DNA from: Eledone cirrhosa
Taxonomy: Eukaryota
Length of the DNA: 64,000 bases
Direction of reading: 5' to 3'
Assembly: GCA_964016885.1 (NCBI GenBank)
Contig: OZ024743.1
Coordinates: 230,950,001 to 231,014,000, forward strand
Part shown: piece by piece, positions 1 through 63,900 of the stretch
How the letters are laid out: every line of letters begins with the position of its first letter
Numbering within the stretch: the first letter of the stretch is position 1
Program-made: the position numbers and the translations under genes
The notes under the pieces: generated by a model
The model's database searches: none
What the model was told of the DNA's origin: nothing
Seen by the model: the letters and a program-made list of their open reading frames with translations, nothing else

Positions 1-467
1 TCCCAGCATTTGATATGAAATAGTTTGAAAGAGACTTAACTATCATTTGTAAGGGGTTGTGAGACCACGTCGAAACTCTATTTAAATGCCTTGCATTACT
101 GAAGAAATACATCGCTAGTGAAAAGATGTGAAACGCTGAAATACCTATCCATTTCCATTCATCTATTAACAGAGCCTGATGTATACTCTATCAACAAAAC
201 GAACACCAAATCTATATAGTGGTTGGTTTCATTAACAACACAACACACTTCACACTCACTTCACTCGACAGGAGCCAATATGTGAGGGCTGCAAGCTATA
301 TTTAGATTTTCACAATGGAAACAAACTTAAACTAAACTTTGCCTCACTTAATTAAATGTTTGATGTCGTAAGCGACGGTAATTAACTTATTTATATGTTG
401 CTCAAACTTATTAATCAAGCACATTCATATAGAGAAATGAAAACTACCACTACCTATATATATACAG

Positions 468-14423: not shown

Positions 14424-14473
<50 letters not shown>

Positions 14474-14487
14474 TTTTAATATAGATG

Positions 14488-14538
14488 AGATTCTACAGGA
14501 CTAGAACTGTTTCATTCATTAGAAATCATCAGGAATCT
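14488..14538 (-). ncRNA. Type I hammerhead ribozyme (inverted copy, PLE-A)
   Basis: Exact reverse complement of 21446-21496. Confidence 0.8.
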
Positions 14539-15284
14539 GGGTATCAAAAAATAAATATGGTATTTATAGGTCTCTACAAGTGGTAGGAGAGGGTGGGGAG
14601 TGGGATGGGTGCAGGTCATTGGTTGATAGAGAAGGGAATTCATTAAAGGCTAATTCTACATAGCTATAGTTAATTTATATTTATTTATGTTTTTAGAGTA
14701 ACAAAGGCAGACAGAAATCTATAAACAAGTTCCGGATGGCATACCATTCCTTGTCAATAAGTTTCTCTTAAGCTAGCAGATGTCTATAAAATCAGTGGGG
14801 GGTCATTCATGCTCGATAGAATTAAAGAAAAGGGAGATTCTTTAAAAGCTAAAGTCATTAAGTTCTGCTAAGTGACAAAGGTCTAGGGAATTCTGCAGAC
14901 AGATTCAAAATACTGAGTGCATATCTTACTATTATCTTCGAACTTCTCTTAAACTAATCAACAATATGCCAAATCAACAGACACATTCACAAAAAAACAA
15001 AGAAACCCCAAAAAGACCAAAAAAACAGAAAAACAAAAAAAGCCACACCTAAAAAAAACCACCAAAAAAACACACATACTCACTCACACACTTACGCGCA
15101 ACCATAAACACACACATAAACACAAATACACACATAAAAACACACACACATATATAAAAAAAGTATATAAATATATACAAATATATATTCATGTACACGC
15201 ACATGCATACACACATACATACATACATACATATATAAAATACATATACACATATACATACGCACACATATATAATACATATAC

Positions 15285-16065: not shown

Positions 16066-16239
16066 TATATACACACATATATATATACACACACATATAT
16101 ATATACACACATCTATATTAAAACTATTATACTCTGCTATGTATTGAGTACCTTACTTACTGTGGTTACCTCCGATTCAACCCGGAATAACGTACATTTT
16201 AGCACTCTCTGTGCCCCTTATAACCATCATCAAGAAACC

Positions 16240-18381
16240 ATGCTGACCAAACTCGACCTTGATATTTCCTTGAAGAACATCCCTATCCCTCCAAGGAAAC
16301 TATACTTAAAAACACTCATCAGACGTACCGACGAGTTCATCAAGCGAATTAGATGGAGGGCCTTCTTCCTCGACAACCCTGATGTAGCATCTACCAATGA
16401 TGAGAAGTTCGGCTTCAAAACGAATAAGACACCACCCACCAACAGCCTACTCCAACCATTTGAGGAAGACCTCTTCAAGATGATCAAGGATATTAAATTC
16501 CGTAGAGCCACCACACCATTCCAGGCCTACTTAAATGCCGAATTACGGAATATAAAAAAATCCCCTAATCTTTATGTCTCCTCCGATAAAACCAAAAACG
16601 TTTATGAGGTAGACCCACAGACCTACAATAAGCTGGCAAAAAATACCATCACGACCACCTACAAAAAGGTAATAGAGAGGGCGCTGACTGAGACAAACGC
16701 GGCCGGAAAAGAAATCGCCAAGTCCCTTAAATTACATGACCGAACCGAACCTTTAAGGGTAAAGACCCCACACTTTACCCTGAAGGACCATAAGGGAAAC
16801 TTCCTCAACAAACCATCAGTCAGACTTATCAACCCCACTCGCTCCGACATCGGCTCTATCAGTAAGAAGATCCTGGATAGAGTTCTACCATTATTGCGGG
16901 CGGCCTCACCACTTCCACTCTGGAGTAGAACATCTGAGGCAATATCATGGTTCCAAGAATTACCCGATAAACACCACACTCGCTTCCTGCAACTCGACAT
17001 AGAAAACTACTATGCCTCTATCTCGGAGCCCCTCCTGAAGGACGCAATTAACTTTGCCAGGAATTTTACCACCATTACCGATGCCGAGCAAGTTATTATC
17101 CTCCACGCTCGTAAGACCTTTCTATACCACGATGGATCTTACTGGATCAACAAGAAATCTCAGACCCCATTTGACGTTAGCATGGGGGCGAGTGACTCGG
17201 CTGAAATTAGCGACCTTGTGGGCCTGTACATCCTACATAACCTGAAGAACCTCTTTACCGGCCTTACTGGAGGTTTATACCGAGACGACGGCCTCTTCGC
17301 CCTGCATAAGGTTAGCCCCAGAACCACCGATGGGTTTCGGAAAAACTTAAGCTCTTTCTTCTCTAATCTAGGATTTAGTATTACTATAGATTCTAATCTG
17401 ACTAGGGCCAACTTCTTAGATGTCACTCTCGACCTAGATACTTCCCTCTATTACCCGTACCACAAACCTAACGAGTCCCTTAAATATATTAATGTTAATT
17501 CAAACCACCCCCAAAACATTACTGATAACCTAGTAAAAAGCGTCTCTATTAGAATATCTGGCCTCTCCGCCAACAAAGATATTTTTAATGCATCTGCCTC
17601 CTACTACAACGACGCCCTAGCCCGTAGCGGATTTAAAGATAAGATAACTTACCTAGAAACCACCGCAAAATTGCAGAGGAGGAATAGACATAGGCAGATT
17701 AGCTGGTACAACCCTCCCTTCAATAGAGAGGTATCTACTCCGATAGCTAGGATTTTCTTCACTTTACTGAAATTACACTTCCCCATACAACATAGGTACT
17801 ACACCATCTTTAATAAGAACACTATAAGACTGTCTTACTCCACCACACCTAACCTAGCTAGGAATATAGCCAACCACAACTCTAAACTAAATAAGCCAAC
17901 CACCTCCGAAACCAATCCCCGGACTGGGGCTCTATGTAATTGCCTAAATAAGGAAACATGCCCACTAGAAAACAAATGCCTCACAAACGACATCGTATAC
18001 AAATGCGATGTCATCTCGGGCACCGAGGATTGCAAAAAAACTTACATCGGCATGACATCCAACACCTTTAAGACCCGCTGGTATGCCCATACCCACTCCT
18101 TCAGAAGACCGGATAAATCAAACCAAACAACACTCGCCTCCTACGTTTGGGACCTCAAAAGGAACTCCACCCCCTTCACGCTTAATTGGAAAATACTCCA
18201 GAAAGCGCGCTCTTACGACGGAGGACACAAGGGCTGCGACCTTTGTATTTCAGAGAGTTACGAAATTTTATTCGCCAAGGGCCCGCTACTGAACAAACTC
18301 TCTGAACACTGCCCGAACTGCATGCACAAGAACTTTGCAACATTCAAACACTTTAAGCCAGTGTTAAAGCCCGATGGCTAA
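16240..18381 (+). CDS. PLE reverse transcriptase + C-terminal GIY-YIG endonuclease, 713 aa from the first ATG (Naiad-like by motif, inference)
   Basis: Uninterrupted ORF. N-terminal [19 protein letters not shown] and DKT motif. RT motifs LDIENYY, SMGASDS, LYRDDG, NFLD. Cys-rich linker CNC..CPL..C. IVY..YIG..R..H endonuclease and CDLC..E..N..CMH. Confidence 0.95.
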
Positions 18382-18529
18382 AAACGACCTCCCCCTATTG
18401 GCCCCTATACCTCCTCCCCACCCTACCCCCACCCCTCCTCAACCTGAAATACGGCCACTATGGTCATGTGAGTACCTCTTTTGTATCTACTTTTTCTGCC
18501 TGTAGAGGTGTCTTTATGTGCCTGTGTAT

Positions 18530-20900
<2,371 letters not shown>

Positions 20901-21445
20901 GTGAGTATGTGTGTTTTTTTGGTGGTTTTTTTTAGGTGTGGCTTTTTTTGTTTTTCTGTTTTTTTGGTCTTTTTGGGGTTTCTTTGTTTTTTTGTGAATG
21001 TGTCTGTTGATTTGGCATATTGTTGATTAGTTTAAGAGAAGTTCGAAGATAATAGTAAGATATGCACTCAGTATTTTGAATCTGTCTGCAGAATTCCCTA
21101 GACCTTTGTCACTTAGCAGAACTTAATGACTTTAGCTTTTAAAGAATCTCCCTTTTCTTTAATTCTATCGAGCATGAATGACCCCCCACTGATTTTATAG
21201 ACATCTGCTAGCTTAAGAGAAACTTATTGACAAGGAATGGTATGCCATCCGGAACTTGTTTATAGATTTCTGTCTGCCTTTGTTACTCTAAAAACATAAA
21301 TAAATATAAATTAACTATAGCTATGTAGAATTAGCCTTTAATGAATTCCCTTCTCTATCAACCAATGACCTGCACCCATCCCACTCCCCACCCTCTCCTA
21401 CCACTTGTAGAGACCTATAAATACCATATTTATTTTTTGATACCC

Positions 21446-21496
21446 AGATTCCTGATGATTTCTAATGAATGAAACAGTTCTAGTCCTGTAGAATCT
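21446..21496 (+). ncRNA. Type I hammerhead ribozyme (PLE-A 3' pLTR)
   Basis: agattc CTGATGA t-ttc-taat-gaa-t GAAA cag-ttctagtc-ctg TA gaatct. Predicted cleavage after 21490. CTAG palindrome in loop III. Confidence 0.85.
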
Positions 21497-21579
21497 CATC
21501 TATATTAAAACTATTATACTCTGCTATGTATTGAGTACCTTACTTACTGTGGTTACCTCCGATTCAACCCGGAATAACG

Positions 21580-21645
<66 letters not shown>

Positions 21646-22300
21646 CACGCACGCGCGCGCACATACGTAGTCGCTCATGTACATATATAGAAAGTGTACA
21701 CACATTAAGGCGTTCAGCCATATTGATACAGGGTGTAAAAAACTTGTGGATAAGTAAGTACAAATATAAAATTGTAAGATTGGCTGCGCAAAAATAAAAA
21801 AATAAAAATAAAAATGAAAAATATATCTGGATTGGAAAACACAAATGACATGTCTAATCAGTTAGTGAAGGAGAAAGGGAAGTAAAAAAAGGGGGAAGTA
21901 AAAAATGGAAAGTGAATCGGAGAATAAAGGGGGGGGAGGTTATTGGTGGATGTGAAGTACAAATAAAAAAAAAAATAAATAAATAAAAAATAAGAATAAA
22001 AATAAATTAAATTATTGACAAGGATAAAAATGAAAGTAAGTCAGAAAGGGTAATTAAAAAGAGAATAATAAGAGTTTATGGAGGATAAGTATCTGAAAGT
22101 GTGTTAAGTTTATATGAGCTGGAAAGCAGATGTGATTTCATGTGTGGGCAACAGGTGAAAATGTCCGTCTTTGTGTTCAGGCAGGTCTTTGGTGATTTTA
22201 GATTTTGCAATATCCAATATTTTCCATTTATGCAGAGCGTGCATTTTCTTGTTCCTCTAGCATATTCTTTAGATTGGTTCAAAATTGACCAATCTAATTT

Positions 22301-24130
22301 CAAATCTTCTAATAATAAGTTCATCTTCTCCGATAAAACTAAAAACCTATATGAAGTTAATAATAATTTACACGACCAACTATTAATAGATAATATCACC
22401 TCTAAATACCAAATAGCTAATATAAATACGTACCATAATATAAATAAGGAAGCTAAAGAATTAGCTGTTTCTTTAAAAATAGATAATAGGACAGAAAAAC
22501 TTGCTAAACGTCCTGCGTATATCACCCTTAAAGATCATAAACCCGACTTTATTAATCGTCCTAGTTGTAGATTAATCAACCCTGCTAAGACTGATATTGG
22601 TCTTGCCAGCAAAAAAATTTTAAATAAATTAAATACACACATTAGAAGTAAGTCTAAATTACTCCAATGGATAAATAGCTCTTCCGTAGTACATTGGTTT
22701 AATAATATTAAAAACAAAATCAGTTCTAGATTCACCCAATTTGACATTGTTGATTTCTACCCATCTATTACTTAGACCCTTTTAGCGAAAGCTTTAAATT
22801 TCGCTAGAGGGTTTACTAATATCTCCGATATTGAAGAGAATGTCATCTTGCATGCTAGGAACACTCTACTTTTTAATGATAATGACACTTGGGTAAAAAT
22901 ATCTAACCCAGAGAACCCATTCGATGTCTCAATGGGCTCTTACGACAGTGCTGATGTTTGTGATCTGGTCGGCCTATTCCTCTTACATACACTTAAAGAA
23001 AAATTTCCTAACCATATTTTTGGGCTTTATCGCGACGATGGTCTAATACTTTCCCATACCACCATAGCCCATAACTTAGATAGATTAAGGAAAGACTTAA
23101 TAAAAACCTTCGCTAGTTTTAATCTTAAAATTACTATTGACACTAACCTTTCCAACGTAGATTTCCTAGATATAAACCTAGATTTGCCTACTGCTTCTTA
23201 TAAACCATACCATAAACCTAATGAAAACTTAAAATATATAAATAAAGGATCTTGCCATCCACCTATAGTTTTTAAAAACCTTATCCCTAATATTAGCCGT
23301 AGGATCTCCACCCTCTCTTCCTCAGAAGCTATTTTTAATAAGGCATCCCCCTACTATTATAAAGCCCTCCAAAATAGCGGTTTTAGCGAACCGATTAAAT
23401 ACATGCCTAACTATACTAACTCTATTAAACATAAAAATAGGAAAAGAAAAATAATCTGGTTCACACACCCCTACTCTCTAGCAGTTAAAACTAATGTAGG
23501 CAAAAAATTCCTTGAGCTCCTAGATAAACATTTCCCTAGAACACATAGATACTATAAGATCTTTAACAGAAACTGTGTCAAAATTAGCTATTCCTGCGGT
23601 CCCCCTATTAAGTCCTATATCCTCAACAAAATATCACCTAGAGAAAATCAAACTTGCTCCTGTAGAATCAAAACTGAATGCCCATTACAAGGCAAATGCA
23701 ACACCAAAGCCATTGTATATGCGGCTAAAGTGACAACCATCAGCAACAACCATCCAGCCACCAGTGACCGATATGTGGGTATGATGCAAGACAAATTCAA
23801 AACGCGTTATTACTCACATGTTGCATCCTTTCGACATCCAGAAAAAAGAGTTCAACAGCTCTGGCTAGCAGAATTTGGGATTTGAAAGACCAAGGCATCC
23901 AATATAAATTAGATTGGTCAATTTTGAACCAATCTAAAGAATATGCTAGAGGAACAAGAAAATGCACGCTCTGCATAAATGAAAAATATTGGATATTGCA
24001 AAATCTAAAATCACCAACGACCTGCCTGAACACAAAGATGGAAATTTTCACCAGTTGCCCACACATGAAATCACACCTGCTTTCCAGCTCATATAAACTT
24101 AACACACTTTCAGATACTTATCCTCCATAA
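22301..24130 (+). pseudogene. PLE-B RT + GIY-YIG ORF, 5'-truncated and disrupted
   Basis: SDKTKNLY, FDIVDFYPSI, SMGSYDS, LYRDDG, IVY..YVG and CTLC..CPH motifs. In-frame TAG at 22773-22775 and a frameshift near 23850. Confidence 0.92.
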
Positions 24131-31014: not shown

Positions 31015-31065
<51 letters not shown>

Positions 31066-31069
<4 letters not shown>

Positions 31070-31324
31070 CGATATATATATGAATGTATATATAGTGTAT
31101 TTTGCAATACACTGTATGCTTAATTAAAAGCATTTCGAAGACCTTATGCTATTATTTTAGAGTAGTGACAGTCTCACTTACTTTAAATTTTCAGCAAACA
31201 TTTTAAAGCTGACAGATCTCTGTTTCGTAAATTTACAATAGCATAAGGTCTTCGAAATGTTTTTAATTAAGCATACAGTGTATTGCAAAATACACTATAT
31301 ATACATTCATATATATATCGCTAT
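31066..31324. repeat. Fold-back inverted repeat (arms about 88 bp); third copy at about 31517-31610
   Basis: 31066-31153 mirrors 31237-31324. The arm has an HHR-like 3' half GAAAtgct..agcaTA. Confidence 0.8.
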
Positions 31325-31602
31325 TTCAGAGCACCAATTCTAATTTTCAATTTCTGCTCGACCGGCAGCCGCTCTGTTTAATCAGTTCCTGATTATTACT
31401 AGAATTCTATAAGAATCAAACATTCACGATTTTCAGCAAACAGGTGGAGTACTTAGCTTTGATAAGTACCAAAAAGTACGTAACAGAGCTATGTCAGCTT
31501 TATCTCCCCTGTTTGCTGTCACTACTCTAAAACAATAGCATAAGGTCTTCGAAATGCTTTTAATTGAGCATACAGTGTATTGCAAAATACACTATAAATA
31601 CA

Positions 31603-31669
<67 letters not shown>

Positions 31670-31673
<4 letters not shown>

Positions 31674-31913
31674 TTAATATAGATGAGATTCTACAGGACG
31701 AGAACTGTTTCATTCTTTAGAAATCATCAGGAATCTGGCTTTCCAAAATGAATGTTGTGGTATTTATATCTTTTCAGGTGGTAGGAGAGGGTTGGGAGTG
31801 GGATGGGTGGAGGTCTTGGTGATGGTTATAAGGGGCACAAAGAGTTCTAAAATGTAAGTTATTCCGGGTTGAAGCCGAGGTAACCACAGAAAGTAAGATA
31901 CTCAATACATAGC
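31670..31913 (-). mobile_element. Non-autonomous miniature relative of PLE-A (leader joined directly to the HHR region)
   Basis: The minus strand matches PLE-A 16136-16235, then jumps at about 31815 to PLE-A 21367-21515. HHR at 31686-31736. Confidence 0.8.
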
Positions 31914-32305
31914 CAGATTCTTGATGATTTCTAAAGAATGAAACAGTTCTAGTCCTGTAGAATCTCATCTATACTAAAACTTTTTTGGAAAGCCAGATTC
32001 CTGATGATTTCTAAAGAATGAAACAGTTCTAGTCCTGTAGAATCTCATCTATATTAAAACTTTTTTGGAAAGCCAGATTCTTGATGATTTCTAAAGAATG
32101 AAACAGTTCTATTGCTGTTGAATCTCATTTATATTAAAACTTTTATACTCTGCTATGTATTGAGTACCTTACTGAGTATAAATGTTTTAATATAGATGAG
32201 ATTCTACAGCACTAGAACTGTTTCATTCTTTAGAAATCATCAGGAATTTGGCTTTCCAAAAAATTTTTTATATAGATGAGATTCTACAGGACTAGAACTG
32301 TTTCA
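31911..32305. repeat. 80-bp tandem array of PLE-A-type hammerhead ribozymes (3 plus-strand units, then 1.5 minus-strand units)
   Basis: agccagattc starts at 31911, 31991 and 32071. HHRs at 31915-31965, 31995-32045, 32075-32125 (plus), 32199-32249 and partial 32279-32305 (minus). Confidence 0.9.
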
Positions 32306-33139
32306 TATATATATATATATAAAATAAAAGAATATATATATATATATGTATGGATATATGCATGTATAAGGATATATGTACATAACATATATTATACAGA
32401 AATACATACATACTTGTATTTATGTATATATGTTATGTACATATATCCTTATACATGCAAGCGCGTTGACGCTCAAGCACACATGAGTACGTGTTTACAT
32501 GTTGGCGTCCGGAAGTGATACTTGTACGTGTTTTTATTGTCATTAAGAAACACACAAAAGACACATATATAATCATATACAGAGAAACACTATTTTATAC
32601 ATAATACTATAATCTGAAAATCTGCTCCGTAATATCCAGAACCTCAGTGAATGATAAAAAATAGACAAAAACTCTTTGAAGAGGGATCTGTATTGTTGTA
32701 AAAGTTGTAGGTTCCTGGTGGTGATTTGTTTAACAATATAATGAGAGTGGGTGTAGAGAAATGAACAAATATTAGAGATTAAAGATGTTGAAATTTGCAG
32801 AAGGAAAGTGTCCTTGAGAGAAGTAGACAATGCTTGGAGTGTGCTGAAATGAGAAAAAATAAGTGTGGATATTAAGGTAGAAAGCGCAGTTGTTGCAAAA
32901 GCTGAGATTAGAGAAAAAAGTAGGGAGATAGGTAGAGAGTGGAAGAGAGTCAGAGATGCTGGTAAATATTAAGTTAGGTGTTATAACAAGTGGCAAAGTT
33001 GATACAATGCTCTTCTCACGAAATTTATGTTATCAGTTCGATTCCCGGTTGCACATCACGTTCTAATTTCGGATCACCTGACCGGTAGTACAAAGAGATC
33101 ATTTCCTGCTGGTTACTTTTAGGGATAGTTCTTATAAGG

Positions 33140-48725: not shown

Positions 48726-48954
48726 TGCGATCAATAACTAAAATAAGCTATTGGGACAAGTGAATCGCGTAAAGCGAGTGAGACAAGTAAACAAGAAGAA
48801 GGACAAGCAAACCGAAGGTCGGAAAAACAGCAAGCAACATGATGGTTATGCGGTCAGCATAATCTGGGTGAATTTCATGAGCGGTCAGAAAAACAGACCG
48901 TACGCCGTGAATGAGGTGTGAAAAAGAAGGAACCCCACTACTAACGGAAATAAG

Positions 48955-50473
48955 GGAAAGAAAGATCTTCGCTAATGGTGTGGCCACCTCCATATTATAT
49001 GGTGGGTTATACCAACAAATGCGACGAGATCTATTTCTTCTAAGTCTATTTTCGTACTCTGTATATGCTACATTATCGACAAATCCACTTCGAGCAAGAG
49101 CTTCATTGTAATAAGTGGAATGGTCGTTGAAAATACGCTCGTTGGTGGACAGACGGGAAAGCCTCAACGAAACGTTTCTTACCAGGTTCTTGGTTATGCT
49201 GGAAGGATGGTTGGAATGCTTACTTATGTAATTAAGCGTATTATTCGGCTTTCTATACGGGTAATACAACCCATTCAATAAATTGAGGGTAACGTCAAGG
49301 TAATTAACGACCGAGAGATTGGCCTCAACCTGTATAGAGAGGTTGAAGCCTTTAAAGAAGGCTGTGAGTTCTTTTCTGAACCTGTCGCAAGCACGAGGTC
49401 CGCACTTAGTCATGGTTAAAAGACCATCGTCATGGTACAAACCACCGCTCGCGTTGGGGAATACGTCCTTGATAGGGAAAAGAAGGAAAAGGCTGATAAG
49501 ATCAGTAACCTCCGCAGAATCACTGGCGCCCATGCTCACGTCGAATGGGATACTATTGGATTTTTTGATCCAAATAGAGTCGTAGAAAATTAATCACCGA
49601 CTTTCGGGCATTGAGGATGACATCAACTTCGAAATCCTTAACCACTGTGAGTGTTTTAGCGAAATTGATAGCTCTAAGGAGAAGTGGTAAAGTGATGGAG
49701 GAGTAGTAATTGTTGATGTCGAATTGGATAAAACGGCAATGTTCCTTGTTACATATGCCGTTGAACCAATCAATCACCGCGAAAGAATTGTTCCACAGTG
49801 CAAGAGGGGCCAAACTTCTAATTTCAGGTATAATTCTATCAAGAATCGTTTTACTAAGTCTACCTAAATCGGACTTCGTAGGGTTAATAAGCCGAATAGA
49901 GGGGTTGTTCGGAAAATTGGATTTGTGATCCTTCAGGGTAAAGTGGGGAGAAATAGGGTCCAGAGGTTCGGTCCAATCCAGGATGTTGAGATCAGATGTG
50001 ATTTTAAACCCAGCATCGTTGATTTCATTGATGTCGCACCGATTAGTTTTACGGTAATCCTTAGTTACAGCATTATGTAGTAGTTGATGGTAAGTACTGC
50101 GCTCCACTTGATATAGGTTGCCAGTTTTGTCGGAATGGACGTACACGGCATTAGAATCCTTAATAGAACGAATTCTATTCTTCAGGTCTTGCTGGAAGGA
50201 ATTGCTCCTATTCCGAAATTTGATACTCCGAATGAGTGCCAAGACATCATTTTCGAAGGGTAGCAATGCTGGGTTACACGGGGGGTTATTATAGGTTTTA
50301 AATCCAAATATATCCTGTTTGTTGTCTGCTTTTCGCGGGTTATCGAAATAAAAGGCACGCCAACGCAACCTTTTAATGAACGCGTCTGTTTTCTGTATCA
50401 GTCGTTTTAGGTATGTTTTCCTGCTTGGTACGGGTATGTTCTTTGTAGAAATATTCAGATGTTGTTTCTGCAT
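48955..50473 (-). pseudogene. PLE-C RT ORF, frameshifted and lacking the endonuclease
   Basis: ISTKNIPVP..FIKRLRWRAFY, SDKTGNLY, FDINNYY, SMGASDS, LYHDDG, WYNPPY. Frameshift near 49580. Homology to PLE-A stops at about 48955. Confidence 0.92.
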
Positions 50474-50599
50474 GATGAATATAAGTCAGTAGAGTGCCCA
50501 ACCGAGGGAGCCAGTTAGTTATACCCTAATGGATAGTACGATCTATACGTGGATATTTTACGTCTTGATGTGGGAGCTAATTATATGTTTTATTTAACC

Positions 50600-53989: not shown

Positions 53990-55290
53990 GTGGTGATGGT
54001 GGTGGTGGCTGCGTTACTGGTACTGGCATGTTTGTTGTTTTTGTTGTTGTTGTTGCTGGTGGCGGCGGTGGTGGTGATGGTGGTGGTGGTGGCGTTGCTG
54101 GTAATGGCATGATTGTTGTTTTTGTTGTTGTTGTTGCTGGTGGTGGGGGTGGTGGTTGTAGTGGTGGTGGTGGTGGCGTTGCTGGTAATGGCATGATTGT
54201 TGTTTTTATTTTTGTTATTGCTGGTGGTGGCGGTGGTGGTCGTAGTGGTGGTGGTGGTGGCGTTGCTGGTATTGGCATGATTGTTGTTTTTGTTGCTGTT
54301 GTTGCTGGCGGTGGCGGTGGTGGTGTTGATGGTGGCGGTGGTGGCGTTGCTGGTACTGGCATGATTGTTGTTTTTTGTTGTTGTTGTTGCTGGTGGGGGC
54401 GGTAGTGGTGATGGTGGTGGTGGTGGCGTTGCTGGTACTGGCATGATTGTTGTTTTTGTTGCTGTTGTTGCTGGCGGTGGCGGTGGTGGTGGTGATGGTG
54501 GCGGTGGTGGCGTTGCTGGTACTGGCATGATTGTTGTTTTTGTTGTTGTTGTTGCTGGTGGTGGCGGTGGTGGTTGTAGTGGTGGCGGTGGTGGCGTTGC
54601 TGGTGTTGGCATGATTGTTGTTTTTGTTGTTGTTGTTGCTGGTGGGGGCGGTAGTGGTGATGGTGGTGGTGGTGGCATTGCTGGTACTGGCATGATTGTT
54701 GTGTTTGTTGCTGTTGTTGCTGGCGGTGGCGGTGGTGGTGGTGATGGTGGCGGTGGTGGCGTTGCTGGTACTGGCATGATTGTTGTTTTTGTTGTTGTTG
54801 TTGCTGGTGGTGGCGGTGGTGGTTGTAGTGGTGGCGGTGGTGGCGTTGCTGGTGTTGGCATGATTGTTGTTTTTGTTGTTGTTGTTGCTGGTGGGGGCGG
54901 TAGTGGTGATGGTGGTGGTGGTGGCGTTGCTGGTACTGGCATGATTGTTGTGTTTGTTGCTGTTGTTGCTGGCGGTGGCGGTGGTGGTGGTGATGGTGGT
55001 GGTGGTGGCGTTGCTGGTACTGGCATGATTGTTGTTTTTGTTGTTGTTGTTGCTGGTGGGGGCGGTAGTGGTGATGGTGGTGGTGGTGGCGTTGCTGGTA
55101 CTGGCATGATTGTTGTTTTTGTTGTTGTTGTTGCTGGTGGGGGCGGTAGTGGTGATGGTGGTGGTGGTGGCGTTGCTGGTACTGGCATGATTGTTGTTTT
55201 TGTTGTTGTTGTTGCTGGTGGGGGCGGTAGTGGTGATGGTGGTGGTGGTGTCGTTGCTGGTACTGGCATGAATATTGTTGTTTTTGTGGT
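53990..55290. repeat. GGT/GTT-based minisatellite, 81/84-bp units, about 16 copies
   Basis: The ggcatg marker recurs every 81 or 84 bp from 54025 to 55265 (one 82-bp unit). Higher-order period 249 bp. Confidence 0.92.
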
Positions 55291-59899: not shown

Positions 59900-62800
59900 T
59901 AAAGAGAAATAACAACACAATCGGTACAGTATATGGAAGGGATATATTAGGTTAACGCTTGATATAGCAGGAAGTTTACATACATTTCAAAGCACGTGTA
60001 AAAACATATAACAAATCTAATTCAACAATCGGAGGCCTCAATAGGGAGGGGCGTTGATGTGGGTCGCACACTCCCCCGAAAAAATGTGCAACCCCACCTC
60101 CTCGGGAACACAAAGAGCGGGTGCTCCCTCCTCTCCTCCTTCTTCTCCTCTCTCACCTACAGGCTGATATAGAGAGAAGGCCCATTCACTCGGGCCATTC
60201 TCGCCACTTTCACCCACCTTTCATAAAACTTGCTGGGGTAGAGAACCTCTCTCTCCATTCTGATCCTTCTTCTAAAATGGTACTTGAAAAAAAGGACCAG
60301 TTGTTGGCCGGAGAGAAAAGTGTCTGACCTCAGCCCTTTCAACCTCGTCCACAATACAACCTCTTTCGCCATAGTTATCACACAGAGAAAAACCGGCTCT
60401 CCTTCGATTTTGAAGGGGGGAGGCGGTTTGATCGTGACAATGTACTTGGTGGTCAACCGGATTGGTCCCACCCGCGACAGTTATCGTTCCACATAGCCCC
60501 ACAGGTCAACAACGCCCGGGCAGTGTAGGAATGCGTGCGCGACGGTTTCCTCGTCACGCACGCATCTCGGACAGATCTTCGAGGTCTCCCTACCCGGGCG
60601 CCCGTGTCTGTAGAGCTTGTCCCGAACAGGTAGAGCTCCTCGGTAGCACTGCCAAACCAGGGACTTTTGGAAGTTGTCGATCGATCCCGGGCCAAACGTC
60701 CTACCGAACAGAATGGTTAGCTCGTCTTGCTCTATGGCCAGAGCCTCTCCGAGAGCGTCGTTGCACATGGGGCGCACCAACCCCTCTATAGAATGTTGAG
60801 GTTGAGTATCCACTGATTGCCGGATCCACTTGCCAGAGGGCCGCGAGCACCTGGGCACATTCAATGTGACAGTCGCCCACTTTTCTCGGTCTTTGCTTGA
60901 GCCAGGTATGCAGCTCGGTGAGTGAGACGAGTCTCGGAAAGGCTCGCCTCACAAAAGGGGCCCACACCGGCTGACCGGTGAGGAATACCTGGAGGTGCCG
61001 TAGCCTTAATGCGTGTATACGCATCGTCAGCCACGGTATACCCAGCCCTCCGTTCGAAGGGTGTTGACAGCAGATGGATCTTCTCACCAAAGGAGCCCGC
61101 TTCTTCCAAAGGAATCGGAAGAGCGCGAGCTCCATTTTGGCGAGTGTTTTCGTTGAGCAAAGCACGACGGTCAAGCGGTAGTAGATGACTGACGCTATAT
61201 AAGTGTTTGCCACCTCCGCTCGATCTTTCAGGGATAGTTTGCACTACTCGGCCCACTTCTGGGCGAGTGCAAACACCCTACTCGTTACCTCGTCCCAGTT
61301 TTTCTCCATCTGGAGGTCTGGTCGAACCAGACCTCCAGATGGAGGTCCGGTCCGAACCAGACCCCGAGCAGCTTCACCGTTCCCTCCGTCCACCGTCCGA
61401 CGGCCTCGTCGGAGGGCATCGGTTTGGCTCTCCACGTTCCGTGTTGCAAACCGACGGACTTGTCCCTGTTCAGCTTGGCTCCTGTAAACCTTTCGTATTC
61501 CTCCAGTAAGGTGCCGATCTGCCCGATTTCCAAGACGCACGATACCATTACTGTCACGTCATCGGCGTAGACCGACACCGCTTTCCGCAATCCCGGTTCC
61601 AAGGGGATTCCCTGCAACAGCTCCAACTTCCGCAGTAGTCGCTCGAGAGCCAGCACATACAGCATGGAGAAGAGAGGTCATCCCTGTCGGATGGATTGCG
61701 CGATTTGGAACGTCTCCGAAAGGTAGCCGTTCGCATTGACCCTTGAGCAGGTGTTGCTGCGGTGCATTGCAGCAATCGAGCCCCTGAAAACGAGTCCGAA
61801 GCCTGCCGCCGCGAGCACCGCATTCAGGTCGACCCTATCAAAGGCCTTAGATTCATCCAAGTTGATCAGGGCCCCACCAAAGCATTCTGCATTTCTCCCA
61901 CCAGGTTCCCGACGACAAGCGCCAACCTCTTCGCTAACACCTTGGCCCAAAACTTTAACTCTGTGTTTAGCAGAGTTATGGGCCAGAAATTATCTATGTC
62001 ATCCCTCTTGTTTTCGTCCTTCCTCACCAGCGTGACAACGCCCTTGGTCACAGAACTGGGAATTCTCCCGTTCTGTTGCCAGTTGCAGTAGATCGCCTGG
62101 AGGATTTCGGAGAACAACTCCGGCATCGCTACATAAAGATCGTATGGTAGACCATCGAAACCGGGAGATTTGCGTTTGCCGCATAGGCTCAGCGCTTCCC
62201 CTAATTCATCGGCTGAAATCGGCCTTTCGCAGGACCCGCCTCCCCATCCGAGAGCCGCGGCAAACCGTCGAGGTATGGACCGAAGTTCATGTCCTCACCC
62301 GGCCCGCTACCCATCCCGAACAGTTGTGCAAAGCACCGTTGAAAGGCCGCGCACATCCTCTCTGGTTCAAGGATCACGCGTCCATCCTGGTCCTTCAAAG
62401 ACCGAATCGTGGACTTGTTTCCACTTTTTGCCCCTGTCACACGGGCCCAACTAACAGCTTTGACTCCCTCGTTACCCGGAGCACGTATTTTACTCCTGAC
62501 AACACAGCGCTCGTGCTTCACGTCAAAGAACTGGTCTAGAGCCGTTCTTGACGCCAGCACGCCGGCCACGTTGCCCCACCTAATCGCCTCTCCTAATCTA
62601 TCTATCAATTCCCTTTCAGTTCTATTCCTATCTGATGCTAATTCCTGACTAAAACCTATCGATTCTATTCTAAGTTGTCTCTTGAGAGAGCCCCACCACC
62701 TGCTATTGACAATTGCCCCCGTCAACCGCTGCTTAACTATAGTGCTAATCCGCTTACTGTAAGCTTTGTTTGTCGGTAAGGACAAGTTTAGTTTCGAGTA

Positions 62801-63900
62801 ACCGGGTCCTTGTATATGGGTTCTGTCAAGGTTGACCACTCCGTTCACCAACTTGTGATCCGAATAGTCAACCATGAACATTCGGGGATAGCTTAATATG
62901 TCCCTATCCTTTTTTCTAACTAGGAACCTATCTAGGTATGACTAGATGTTCCGCTCCGATTAGTCCACGTCCACAGTGGCACAGTCGAAAAACTAGTCGA
63001 TATTTATCTGCCAGATCAAATCGGCCGATTAACCGTTTGAGGCTGTTTCGCCCCCGTCTATCGGGACATGCCCCTACATAGTCCCAACGTGCATCAAGGA
63101 TACCATTCCAGTCCCCCACTAAAAGCAAGGAGCGAGACGTTCCCAGAAAAGTCTCTAGGCGTTGGAAGAAGTCCGATCGCGGTGTCCCAGATGGGGCATA
63201 CGCTGCCAGCAGCCTGAAGGCTCCACCTTCACTACTGCCTACGTCTAGAACCACCAGTCGACCTCCGGGTTCAGGTGTACCTTCCGTGTTTTCGCAACAG
63301 GACGACCACCCTGCACCCCCCCCCCCGCTGACAGAGAGATGCATAGATTTCAAAGTCGTCGAAGATGGGGGCCAGTTGGTGCTCGCTGCTGATCCTGGAC
63401 TCGCAAATAGCTACCACTTCCATTCTGTGCGACCTGATGTCATTTAAGAGTTTGCCCTGCTTCCAGGGCATCCCCAGGCCGCGCACATTTAAACATCCAA
63501 CTCTTATAACAGCCATGTTGGTGGTGAAGAGTTTAGAGTGTAGAAAAAGGAAAATACACCTACCTGTCCTTCTCCTGGGGACCAGGCTGCACAATTTCCC
63601 TGGGGGTGTCGGCGGGGTTGTTTTGTGGGGTGGTGGTTTGGGATGTTGTGGGGACATCAGTGGGTGGTGGGGTGGGGGTGTTTGGTGGGGGAGAGTCGTA
63701 TGAGGTGGTGGTGGGAAAACATTTCAAGCAGCTGCTACGTCTAGTACAGTTGTTCCCCACGTCCTCGGGAAAGTTCTGTTTGAGCATTGCGTAGGTGTCC
63801 CTTGGGACGCTAATCATTTTTAAATGCGGTTTAGTCGCCGCGTTGGTTAACATTTTCCCTTCGGTTTCCACCGAAGGGTCTTTATCTATTGTTTGCACAA
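59900..63900 (-). mobile_element. Tx1/L1-clade non-LTR retrotransposon, decayed; may continue beyond the window
   Basis: GC-rich block with a complete ORF2 trace, a probable ORF1 C-terminus upstream (63560-63898) and a 3' UTR ending at (TA)n near 59890. Confidence 0.85.
60157..63516 (-). pseudogene. LINE ORF2: AP endonuclease + RT + zf-RVT-like CCHC, several frameshifts
   Basis: GCLNVRG..CESR, YAPS, GDWN, SDHKLV; PITLLNTELK, LDESKAFDRV, SIRQG, YADDV; LPVRDKL..CPRC..ETVAHAFLHC. Confidence 0.9.

What the first reader, a model, noticed from the sequence alone, without database searches (positions are those of the whole stretch)
31911..32305. 80-nt tandem array made almost only of hammerhead ribozymes
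Seen: an exact 80-bp period, each unit being a 51-nt HHR plus 29 nt. There are three plus-strand units and an inverted pair with the same period. With 31686-31736 that is five complete HHRs and one partial in 620 bp. Units 1 and 3 have UUGAUGA (C3U) and unit 2 is canonical. Known: minimal PLE hammerheads can cleave as dimers through palindromic loop III, and animal non-LTR retrozymes are tandem HHR repeats of a few hundred nt that yield circular RNAs. Inference: a transcript would be cut into 80-nt monomers. The array could be the rolling-circle RT product of an unusually small circular RNA parasitising PLE-A.
Basis: partly seen in the sequence, partly recalled or inferred. Interest (0 to 1): 0.72.

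Follow-up and report, generated by a model that had tools for sequence, protein, structure and literature searches.

The report
Penelope-made hammerhead arrays and giant satellite
This short run of 80-base repeats, each carrying a predicted self-cutting RNA motif, is a one-off piece of a Penelope-type jumping gene that was likely copied several times over while it inserted, and a 78-base sister repeat elsewhere in the genome has grown into a 377,000-base satellite of about 4,800 such motifs.

Summary
The array is real: three 80-bp units, a fold-back copy and a fifth hammerhead; only three of the five keep the canonical core. It is the terminal-repeat hammerhead of an abundant Hydra-type Penelope element (about 15,000 dispersed copies), inside one TA-targeted insertion. 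The 80-bp junction occurs nowhere else, even with two mismatches. Unit 3 runs on into native element sequence, which an 80-nt circle cannot supply, so a mobile 80-nt circular parasite is not supported. The genome holds 14 such arrays (61-262 bp), each with its own junction; one lacks half the core and one includes host DNA. Best reading: the reverse transcriptase re-aligned on a linear RNA during insertion (inferred; DNA-level expansion is the main rival). A 78-bp sister unit forms a 377-kb satellite of about 4,800 hammerheads, with no extra conservation of the core, against a reported maximum of 300 units. No RNA data were available. The scan earlier noted 311-463-bp retrozyme arrays with Penelope-type ends in this genome, but not this family.

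The parts
31606..31669 (.). (TA)n target microsatellite, left
   Evidence: Hydra elements insert into (TA)n
31670..31820 (-). Arm A: 3' end of the element at the short reverse-transcription start (about +21 from the cleavage site), hammerhead at 31686-31736 (canonical core, loop III palindrome broken), TATA-like box at 31761-31768, native 3' region back to -129
   Evidence: (L085)
31814..31913 (-). Arm A continued: 5' leader +33..+132 joined to -129, i.e. an ORF-less junction that occurs once; it ends at the inversion into unit 1
   Evidence: L085; 0 of the other 46 matches span this junction (40 of 1,868 candidates scored)
31911..31990 (+). Unit 1: hammerhead 31915-31965 with C3U, predicted cut after 31959, then the junction (+25 joined to -58, 3-nt T overlap)
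31991..32070 (+). Unit 2: hammerhead 31995-32045, canonical core, U-U at the base of helix II, 4-bp helix III with CUAG palindrome, predicted cut after 32039
32071..32173 (+). Unit 3: hammerhead 32075-32125 with C3U and further changes, continuing into the native 5' leader to about +55
32174..32306 (-). Fold-back copy of units 2-3: hammerhead 32199-32249 (canonical core, one stem I pair broken), a third copy of the junction, and a partial hammerhead ending in (TA)n
16110..21584 (+). PLE-A, a related full-length Hydra-type Penelope element: 713-aa ORF at 16240-18381 (RT plus C-terminal GIY-YIG), terminal repeat with hammerhead at 21446-21496, TATA-like box 30 nt upstream of stem I
14468..14960 (-). 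Inverted terminal-repeat copy of PLE-A, with hammerhead at 14488-14538

Best explanation
The array is a locus-specific by-product of one insertion of a Hydra-type Penelope element, in which the element's reverse transcriptase likely slipped back and recopied the 80-nt stretch around its hammerhead. Shown: the unit is the element's own terminal repeat from -58 to +25 around the cleavage site, embedded in a TA-targeted, inverted insertion, with a junction found nowhere else. Inferred steps: copying starts at one of two fixed internal sites (+15..24 or +87..94) on an uncleaved RNA and passes through the hammerhead. The enzyme lets go at the U-run just upstream, re-anneals by 2-3 nt to a U-run just downstream, and repeats, as telomerase or DRT2 do on a linear template. 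The hammerhead is a passenger. Later DNA-level turnover can amplify such a seed; this is the likely origin of the 377-kb 78-bp satellite on C28.
For: (1) The junction is unique. (2) 14 arrays with two or more copies of one junction (61, 64, 78, 80, 86, 110, 146, 191, 195, 199, 211, 221, 250, 262 bp) have 14 different junctions. Only the 78 recurs, as an 8-mer on C1 that is 96% like C28 units and lacks insertion ends. (3) In 6 of the 7 arrays whose junction lies inside +94, the first-made end runs past the junction into native sequence, so the template was longer than the unit. (4) The 61-bp array lacks CUGAUGA yet repeats its junction, and a 32-nt non-ribozyme stretch is reiterated inside the 146-bp array. 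(5) Arrays end at the family's start sites: 53 of 99 sampled copies end at +7..24 and 40 of 99 at +87..94. The 191- and 195-bp arrays carry the same junction on both arms of an inversion, and all 191-bp units share private variants, so the repeats existed at insertion. (6) 7 of 8 cleanly aligned junction types overlap by 2-3 nt, against 21% by chance. (7) A purified Penelope enzyme starts internally at two sites, uses uncleaved RNA and extends both strands (PMC11167929).
Against: No enzyme or RNA data. Six arrays (86, 191, 211, 221, 250, 262) fit a pure circular template equally well. The 199-bp array contains 21 nt of host flank in every unit, and the C28 satellite shows that DNA-level expansion happens here. 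Why landing sites are constant within a locus but differ between loci is unexplained. Units 1 and 3 share C3U while unit 2 and the fold-back copy do not, which suits later DNA exchange better than one continuous copying run. 0 of 99 dispersed copies end at -55..-59, so the U-run is not a general stop. The overlap figure is inflated: it was maximised over a panel of native copies, and 6 junction types (78, 146, 195, 221, 250, 262) were dropped as unresolved. Exact-anchor searches miss arrays: 1 of 3 found independently was missed.
Confidence: 0.5

Rival explanations
1. The junction was made once, by a template switch during insertion, and the extra units came later from DNA-level duplication or unequal exchange at the locus.
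For: The 199-bp array duplicates host flank in place. The C28 array reached about 4,800 units at 92.6% neighbour identity. C3U alternates among units, and unit 3 carries several extra changes. The preprint favours local amplification.
Against: Multi-junction arrays (14) outnumber the single-junction tandems seen (3: the 168-bp locus, arm A of this locus, L147), and several are 98-99% like PLE-A. The same junction sits on both arms of inversions whose outer ends are insertion ends.
Confidence: 0.27
2. A one-off RNA circle templated rolling-circle copying. The circle came from a junction-bearing dimer, possibly this locus itself, or from a ligated fragment, and the enzyme switched between it and the linear element RNA.
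For: Six arrays fit a circle end to end. 13 of 14 arrays keep a complete hammerhead, although most were found with patterns that require it; the 3 of 3 found without that requirement are complete. The circle model is proposed for Penelope elements and retrozymes, and earlier notes on larger families in this genome favour it (unchecked).
Against: No source locus was found for any junction. Native sequence lies beyond the junction in 6 of 7 short arrays. One array has no intact core. Junction overlaps point to base-paired switching rather than end ligation. The 80-nt circle folds weakly (-9.4 kcal/mol).
Confidence: 0.17
3. The 80-nt unit is an established, mobile minimal retrozyme family that parasitises PLE-A.
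For: Retrozyme consensus lengths go down to 51 bp. The 78-bp unit is present at two loci.
Against: The junction is unique. Only 1 of 3 plus-strand cores is canonical. The units come from a sister subfamily. The second 78-bp locus has no (TA)n target or family end, and 6 of its 7 whole units have no exact copy on C28, which suits an older DNA-level transfer.
Confidence: 0.05

Closest known systems
Hydra-clade Penelope-like elements (Craig et al. 2021, PMC8557442; passages and section 11 read)
   Same: C-terminal GIY-YIG, DKT, CxCX5C linker, CxxC and CxH motifs, RWR at the RWK position, (TA)n targets, hammerhead in the terminal repeat, partial-tandem and inverted insertions with tails.
   Different: The array has no ORF. 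The section read does not describe reiterated hammerhead-only units. PLE-A spans about 5.5 kb with microsatellites, against under 3 kb described.
Metazoan non-LTR retrozymes (Cervera and de la Pena 2020, PMC7229834, passages and Discussion; Li, Clavereau and Pollet 2026 preprint 10.64898/2026.07.22.740005, parts 1-3 of 5)
   Same: Tandem type I hammerhead repeats, non-coding, derived from Penelope terminal repeats. The size lies within 51-972 bp. U-U at the base of helix II, as in axolotl HHR_Amex2.
   Different: Each junction here is single-locus rather than a dispersed family. The window array fails the preprint's 'active' rule if C3U counts as incomplete. No circular RNA is shown. The C28 array has about 4,800 units against a reported maximum of 300.
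Hammerhead-bearing satellites: newt satellite 2 and Schistosoma W-elements (PMC7229834, PMC8490949; passages)
   Same: Satellite arrays whose units contain a type I hammerhead.
   Different: Those units are about 330-400 bp (W27.2: 403 bp, about 100 copies). Here 51 of 78 bp is hammerhead, and the seeding insertion is still readable at the array's left edge.
Repeat synthesis on a linear RNA: telomerase and DRT2 (PMC12039810; passages)
   Same: Proposed working principle: a reverse transcriptase re-aligns by a few bases and recopies one template stretch.
   Different: Those are programmed, with fixed boundaries. Here boundaries vary by locus and the activity is only inferred from genome sequence.

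Membership tests
Type I hammerhead ribozyme | Core CUGANGA / GAAA / UH with three helices | tested here: met
   Met for unit 2, arm A and (with one stem I mismatch) the fold-back copy; units 1 and 3 have C3U. Family norm: C3 in 78 of 79 dispersed copies.
Type I hammerhead ribozyme | Match to an Rfam hammerhead model | tested here: not met
   No hit on these units at gathering score or E<=10.
Type I hammerhead ribozyme | Self-cleavage | not testable with these tools
   Active fold -4.2 versus minimum -7.6 kcal/mol; swapped dimer -15.5 versus -25.7. Penelope hammerheads cleave weakly or need protein.
Non-LTR retrozyme | Tandem non-coding repeats, each with a type I hammerhead | tested here: inconclusive
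   Window: tandem, but each adjacent plus-strand pair includes a C3U unit. C28: met, with 3,007 of 3,960 78-bp units having an intact core.
Non-LTR retrozyme | The same unit dispersed at many loci | tested here: not met
   80-bp junction at one locus; 14 arrays, 14 junctions.
Non-LTR retrozyme | Expressed as monomeric circular RNA | not testable with these tools
   Needs RNA data that were not on hand.
Hydra-clade Penelope-like element (parent family) | C-terminal GIY-YIG, DKT, CxCX5C, CxxC/CxH and RWK-like motifs | tested here: met
   All read in the 713-aa ORF against the clade description; RWR stands for RWK. Pfam GIY-YIG is only a weak hit, E 0.067.
Hydra-clade Penelope-like element (parent family) | (TA)n targets, tails, inverted partial copies | tested here: met
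   93 of 99 sampled copies end at +7..24 or +87..94, most followed by (TA)n.
Hydra-clade Penelope-like element (parent family) | Placement in the clade on an RT tree | not tested
   No tree built.

The most novel reading that the evidence does not exclude
Penelope reverse transcriptases, the sister group of telomerase, have telomerase-like repeat addition on a linear RNA. They stamp out hammerhead tandems with a new period at roughly 1 in 1,000 insertions, without any RNA circle, and these are the raw material of retrozymes and satellites. One of them became a 377-kb array of about 4,800 minimal ribozymes that, if transcribed, would be cut into 78-nt RNAs.
Probability: 0.3. Interest if true: 0.8.

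Novelty: new variant of a known kind. Interest (0 to 1): 0.52.

Why it matters
How Penelope elements make tandem copies, and how retrozymes are born from them, is open: RNA circles are assumed but not shown. This family offers 14 single-locus arrays with readable breakpoints, a full-length ORF in the window, and a giant satellite whose seeding insertion survives at one edge. That makes circle versus re-alignment directly testable with a published in vitro assay. The clustering of 5' ends 30 nt below a TATA-like box also predicts a transcript that starts at the first base of the hammerhead. The window array by itself is a minor, partly decayed copy.

Tried and rejected
No RNA holder listed; no verdict on expression. 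Contigs of runs X1-X3 (one sample, kind unknown) were laid on the window locus and on the C28 edge. They hold the family, a 78-type junction, and the C28 inversion centre at the depth of the unique flank. They match that flank with 0 differences, so they may be the assembly's own sample and are not independent; no contig spans the window array. Rfam: no hit at gathering score in the window or in three C28 pieces. Selection on the ribozyme in the C28 satellite was tested and not found: base-corrected core divergence ratio 0.88 (3,960 units) and 0.90 (1,081 distinct units), permutation p about 0.28, units not independent. A single higher-order repeat was not found at lags 1-59. My idea that all arrays break at the transcript's 5' end was rejected: only 4 (146, 168, 191, 199) break at -45..-49, and most others at -51..-79. 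Of 15 loci fetched, 8 were not simple tandems (separate or inverted insertions; L153, L154, L159-L164), and 2 of the 5 matches were inversion junctions; these were dropped before counting arrays. The flanking 80-bp C28 satellite is unrelated to the hammerhead, and all but 2 of its first 100 listed matches lie on C28, so nothing points to a genome-wide centromeric repeat. Lunse et al. 2017 (PMC5785218) was not held, so the effect of C3U stays open: C3G and G8C abolish cleavage of another Penelope hammerhead, while rare natural core variants only slow it.

Full report
Observation. Units 1 and 3 have C3U; unit 2, arm A and the fold-back copy have the canonical core. Each motif is a type I hammerhead by core and helices: 6-bp stem I, a weak helix II closed by U-U, and a 4-bp helix III whose loop holds a CUAG palindrome. 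Rfam does not score it, and the active fold is not the minimum-energy one. A helix-III-swapped dimer of units 1-2 gains 6.7 kcal/mol over two monomers but stays about 10 above the minimum. Cleavage is untested.

What the unit is. The same motif sits in the terminal repeats of PLE-A (21446-21496 and 14488-14538). PLE-A's 713-aa ORF has the motifs given for the Hydra clade: DKT, CxCX5C, C-terminal GIY-YIG, CxxC and CxH, with RWR for RWK; no tree was built. An exact 25-mer of the motif has 7,698 reverse and 9,867 forward matches. 2,219 of these lie in the C28 array, leaving about 15,000 dispersed copies. At least 3,250 copies keep the upstream TATA-like box. Two subfamilies differ just upstream of the hammerhead. 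The window units belong to the minor one (20 of the first 100 matches; 2 of those 20 carry C3U), not to PLE-A's. Numbering from the cleavage site, the unit is -58 to +25 with a 3-nt T overlap.

How the family inserts. I mapped 99 of the first 100 matches (all on C1). 53 end at +7..24 and 40 at +87..94, mostly in (TA)n, and 3 run on into the ORF. These match the two internal start sites shown for a purified Penelope enzyme, which also uses uncleaved RNA and extends both strands (PMC11167929, parts 1-2 of 4). 55 of 99 have their 5' end at -35..-49, and ends beyond about -118 partly reflect limits of my reference. The TATA-like box lies 30 nt upstream of the first base of stem I in 34 of 45 copies and 32-33 nt in 10. 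I infer a transcript that starts at the hammerhead's edge. Many copies are back-to-back arms with one short and one long end.

The locus. From the left: (TA)n; a minus arm starting at +21, running through a hammerhead to -129 and then jumping to the leader (+132 back to +33); an inversion; units 1-3; native leader to +55; a fold-back copy of units 2-3; (TA)n. It is one rearranged insertion with two different junctions. The TATA-like box of arm A points away from the array.

The 80-bp junction matches only here, exactly (2 of 2) and with up to two mismatches (2 of 2). Searches for tail-to-head junctions at periods of about 35-305 bp plus a leader search gave 14 arrays with a repeated junction: 61, 64, 78, 80, 86, 110, 146, 191, 195, 199, 211, 221, 250 and 262 bp. 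All junctions differ. These searches need exact anchors and missed 1 of 3 arrays found independently. Matches listed after the C28 array were not visible, but my C28 pieces account for 1,936 of 1,951 and 2,614 of 2,659 of the remaining forward matches, with losses expected at 38 piece borders; 2 reverse matches were not seen.

Which mechanism. Against a circle of the unit alone: in 6 of 7 arrays with a junction inside +94, the first-made end continues into native sequence; the 195-bp array has native sequence upstream to -85; the 61-bp array lacks half the core; no source locus was found. Against purely later duplication: the 191- and 195-bp junctions are on both arms of inversions that end at insertion sites, all 191-bp units share private variants, and repeated junctions outnumber single ones 14 to 3. 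For base-paired switching: 7 of 8 resolved junction types overlap by 2-3 nt against 21% by chance, with 6 types dropped as unresolved and a bias upward. For DNA-level events: the 199-bp array repeats 21 nt of host flank. Six arrays fit a circle equally well. I commit to re-alignment of the enzyme on a linear RNA during insertion (0.5), with later DNA expansion (0.27) and a one-off circle (0.17) as rivals. The analogy to telomerase and DRT2 comes from passages of PMC12039810 and is not evidence.

The C28 satellite. G000:C28:30,496,746-30,873,729 holds 4,816 hammerhead hits counted over 10-kb pieces, all but one on one strand, a few counted twice at borders. 3,960 of 4,712 measured periods are 78 bp, 95.8% like their majority sequence; 3,007 of 3,960 keep the core and 2,180 keep core and stem I. 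The core is not better conserved than the rest. The left edge preserves the seed: (TA)n, a minus arm ending at the long start site, junction-like sequence and an inversion into the array. The array lies between inverted blocks of an unrelated 80-bp satellite and next to an 18-bp satellite, so ordinary satellite turnover is the likely amplifier. An 8-unit piece on C1 is 96% like C28 runs and has no insertion ends.

Comparison with print. Hammerheads in Penelope terminal repeats, weak dimer cleavage and the circle model are published (PMC4209133, parts 1-2 of 4; PMC6765202 passages). Animal retrozymes of 170-400 nt give circular RNAs (PMC7229834, passages and Discussion). A 2026 preprint derives them from Penelope terminal repeats, reports 51-972 bp and at most 300 units in 35 genomes, and saw cleavage in 1 of 9 dimers (parts 1-3 of 5); its supplementary tables, which I could not see, may list short units like these. 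Six paper searches listed no hammerhead-only satellite of thousands of units and no reiterative copying by a Penelope enzyme; I read only the papers named here, and the library lacks most subscription journals. Earlier notes of this scan describe 311-463-bp retrozyme arrays with two arms in this genome (unchecked), and none by sequence for this unit.

Verdict. Observation confirmed; interpretation partly supported. The window array works like a nascent retrozyme but fails membership on dispersal. It is a new variant of a known kind. Its interest comes from the series of arrays and the satellite rather than from this copy: 0.52.

Noticed in passing
G000:C28:30,496,746-30,873,729 (L038-L076): 377-kb satellite of about 4,800 78-bp hammerhead units of this family, with the seeding Penelope insertion at its left edge.
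   Followed up: yes
L083, L084, L036 (left) and L076:9577 to L082 (right): Unrelated 80-bp GA-rich satellite in opposite orientations on the two sides of the hammerhead array (883 forward and 896 reverse exact matches), plus an 18-bp satellite of about 19 kb on the left. The near-equal periods (78 and 80) are unexplained.
   Followed up: partly
G000:C28: C28 (136 Mb) is numbered after much smaller contigs (C27 is 22 Mb). From recall, chromosome-level assemblies often list a sex chromosome this way; untested.
   Followed up: no
L076:3732-4893; also left of the 86-bp array in L035: 422-bp repeat (2.8 copies) with its own hammerhead core interrupts the right end of the C28 array; probably the roughly 420-bp retrozyme family of earlier notes.
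   Followed up: partly
window 21416-21446 and dispersed copies: TATA-like box exactly 30 nt upstream of hammerhead stem I, and 5' ends of copies piling up there: a predicted transcription start at the ribozyme's first base.
   Followed up: partly
L156 (G000:C9:42,923,400-42,927,000): Four tandem copies of a Penelope insertion together with 21 nt of host flank, bounded by a 6-nt direct repeat.
   Followed up: partly
window 31018-31669: A separate inverted-repeat element beside the array (154-nt arms, 96%), with a weak Hammerhead_HH9 match at 31442-31517 (E 0.0034, below gathering score): likely a decayed copy of another ribozyme-bearing family.
   Followed up: no
window 22089-24130 (+) and 48748-50485 (-): Two further Hydra-like Penelope ORFs, each split over more than one frame.
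   Followed up: no
window 53990-55287: 84-bp tandem repeat (15.7 copies), open in several frames; one minus-strand frame reads as Pro/Thr-rich repeats, possibly a mucin-like exon.
   Followed up: no
window 60481-63723 (-): Fragmented LINE-like endonuclease and reverse transcriptase frames (label from recalled motifs).
   Followed up: no
L018 (G000:C28:30,777,808-30,781,035): An insert of about 250-280 bp ending in (GAT)n interrupts the satellite at two nearby places, i.e. it was duplicated along with the array.
   Followed up: no
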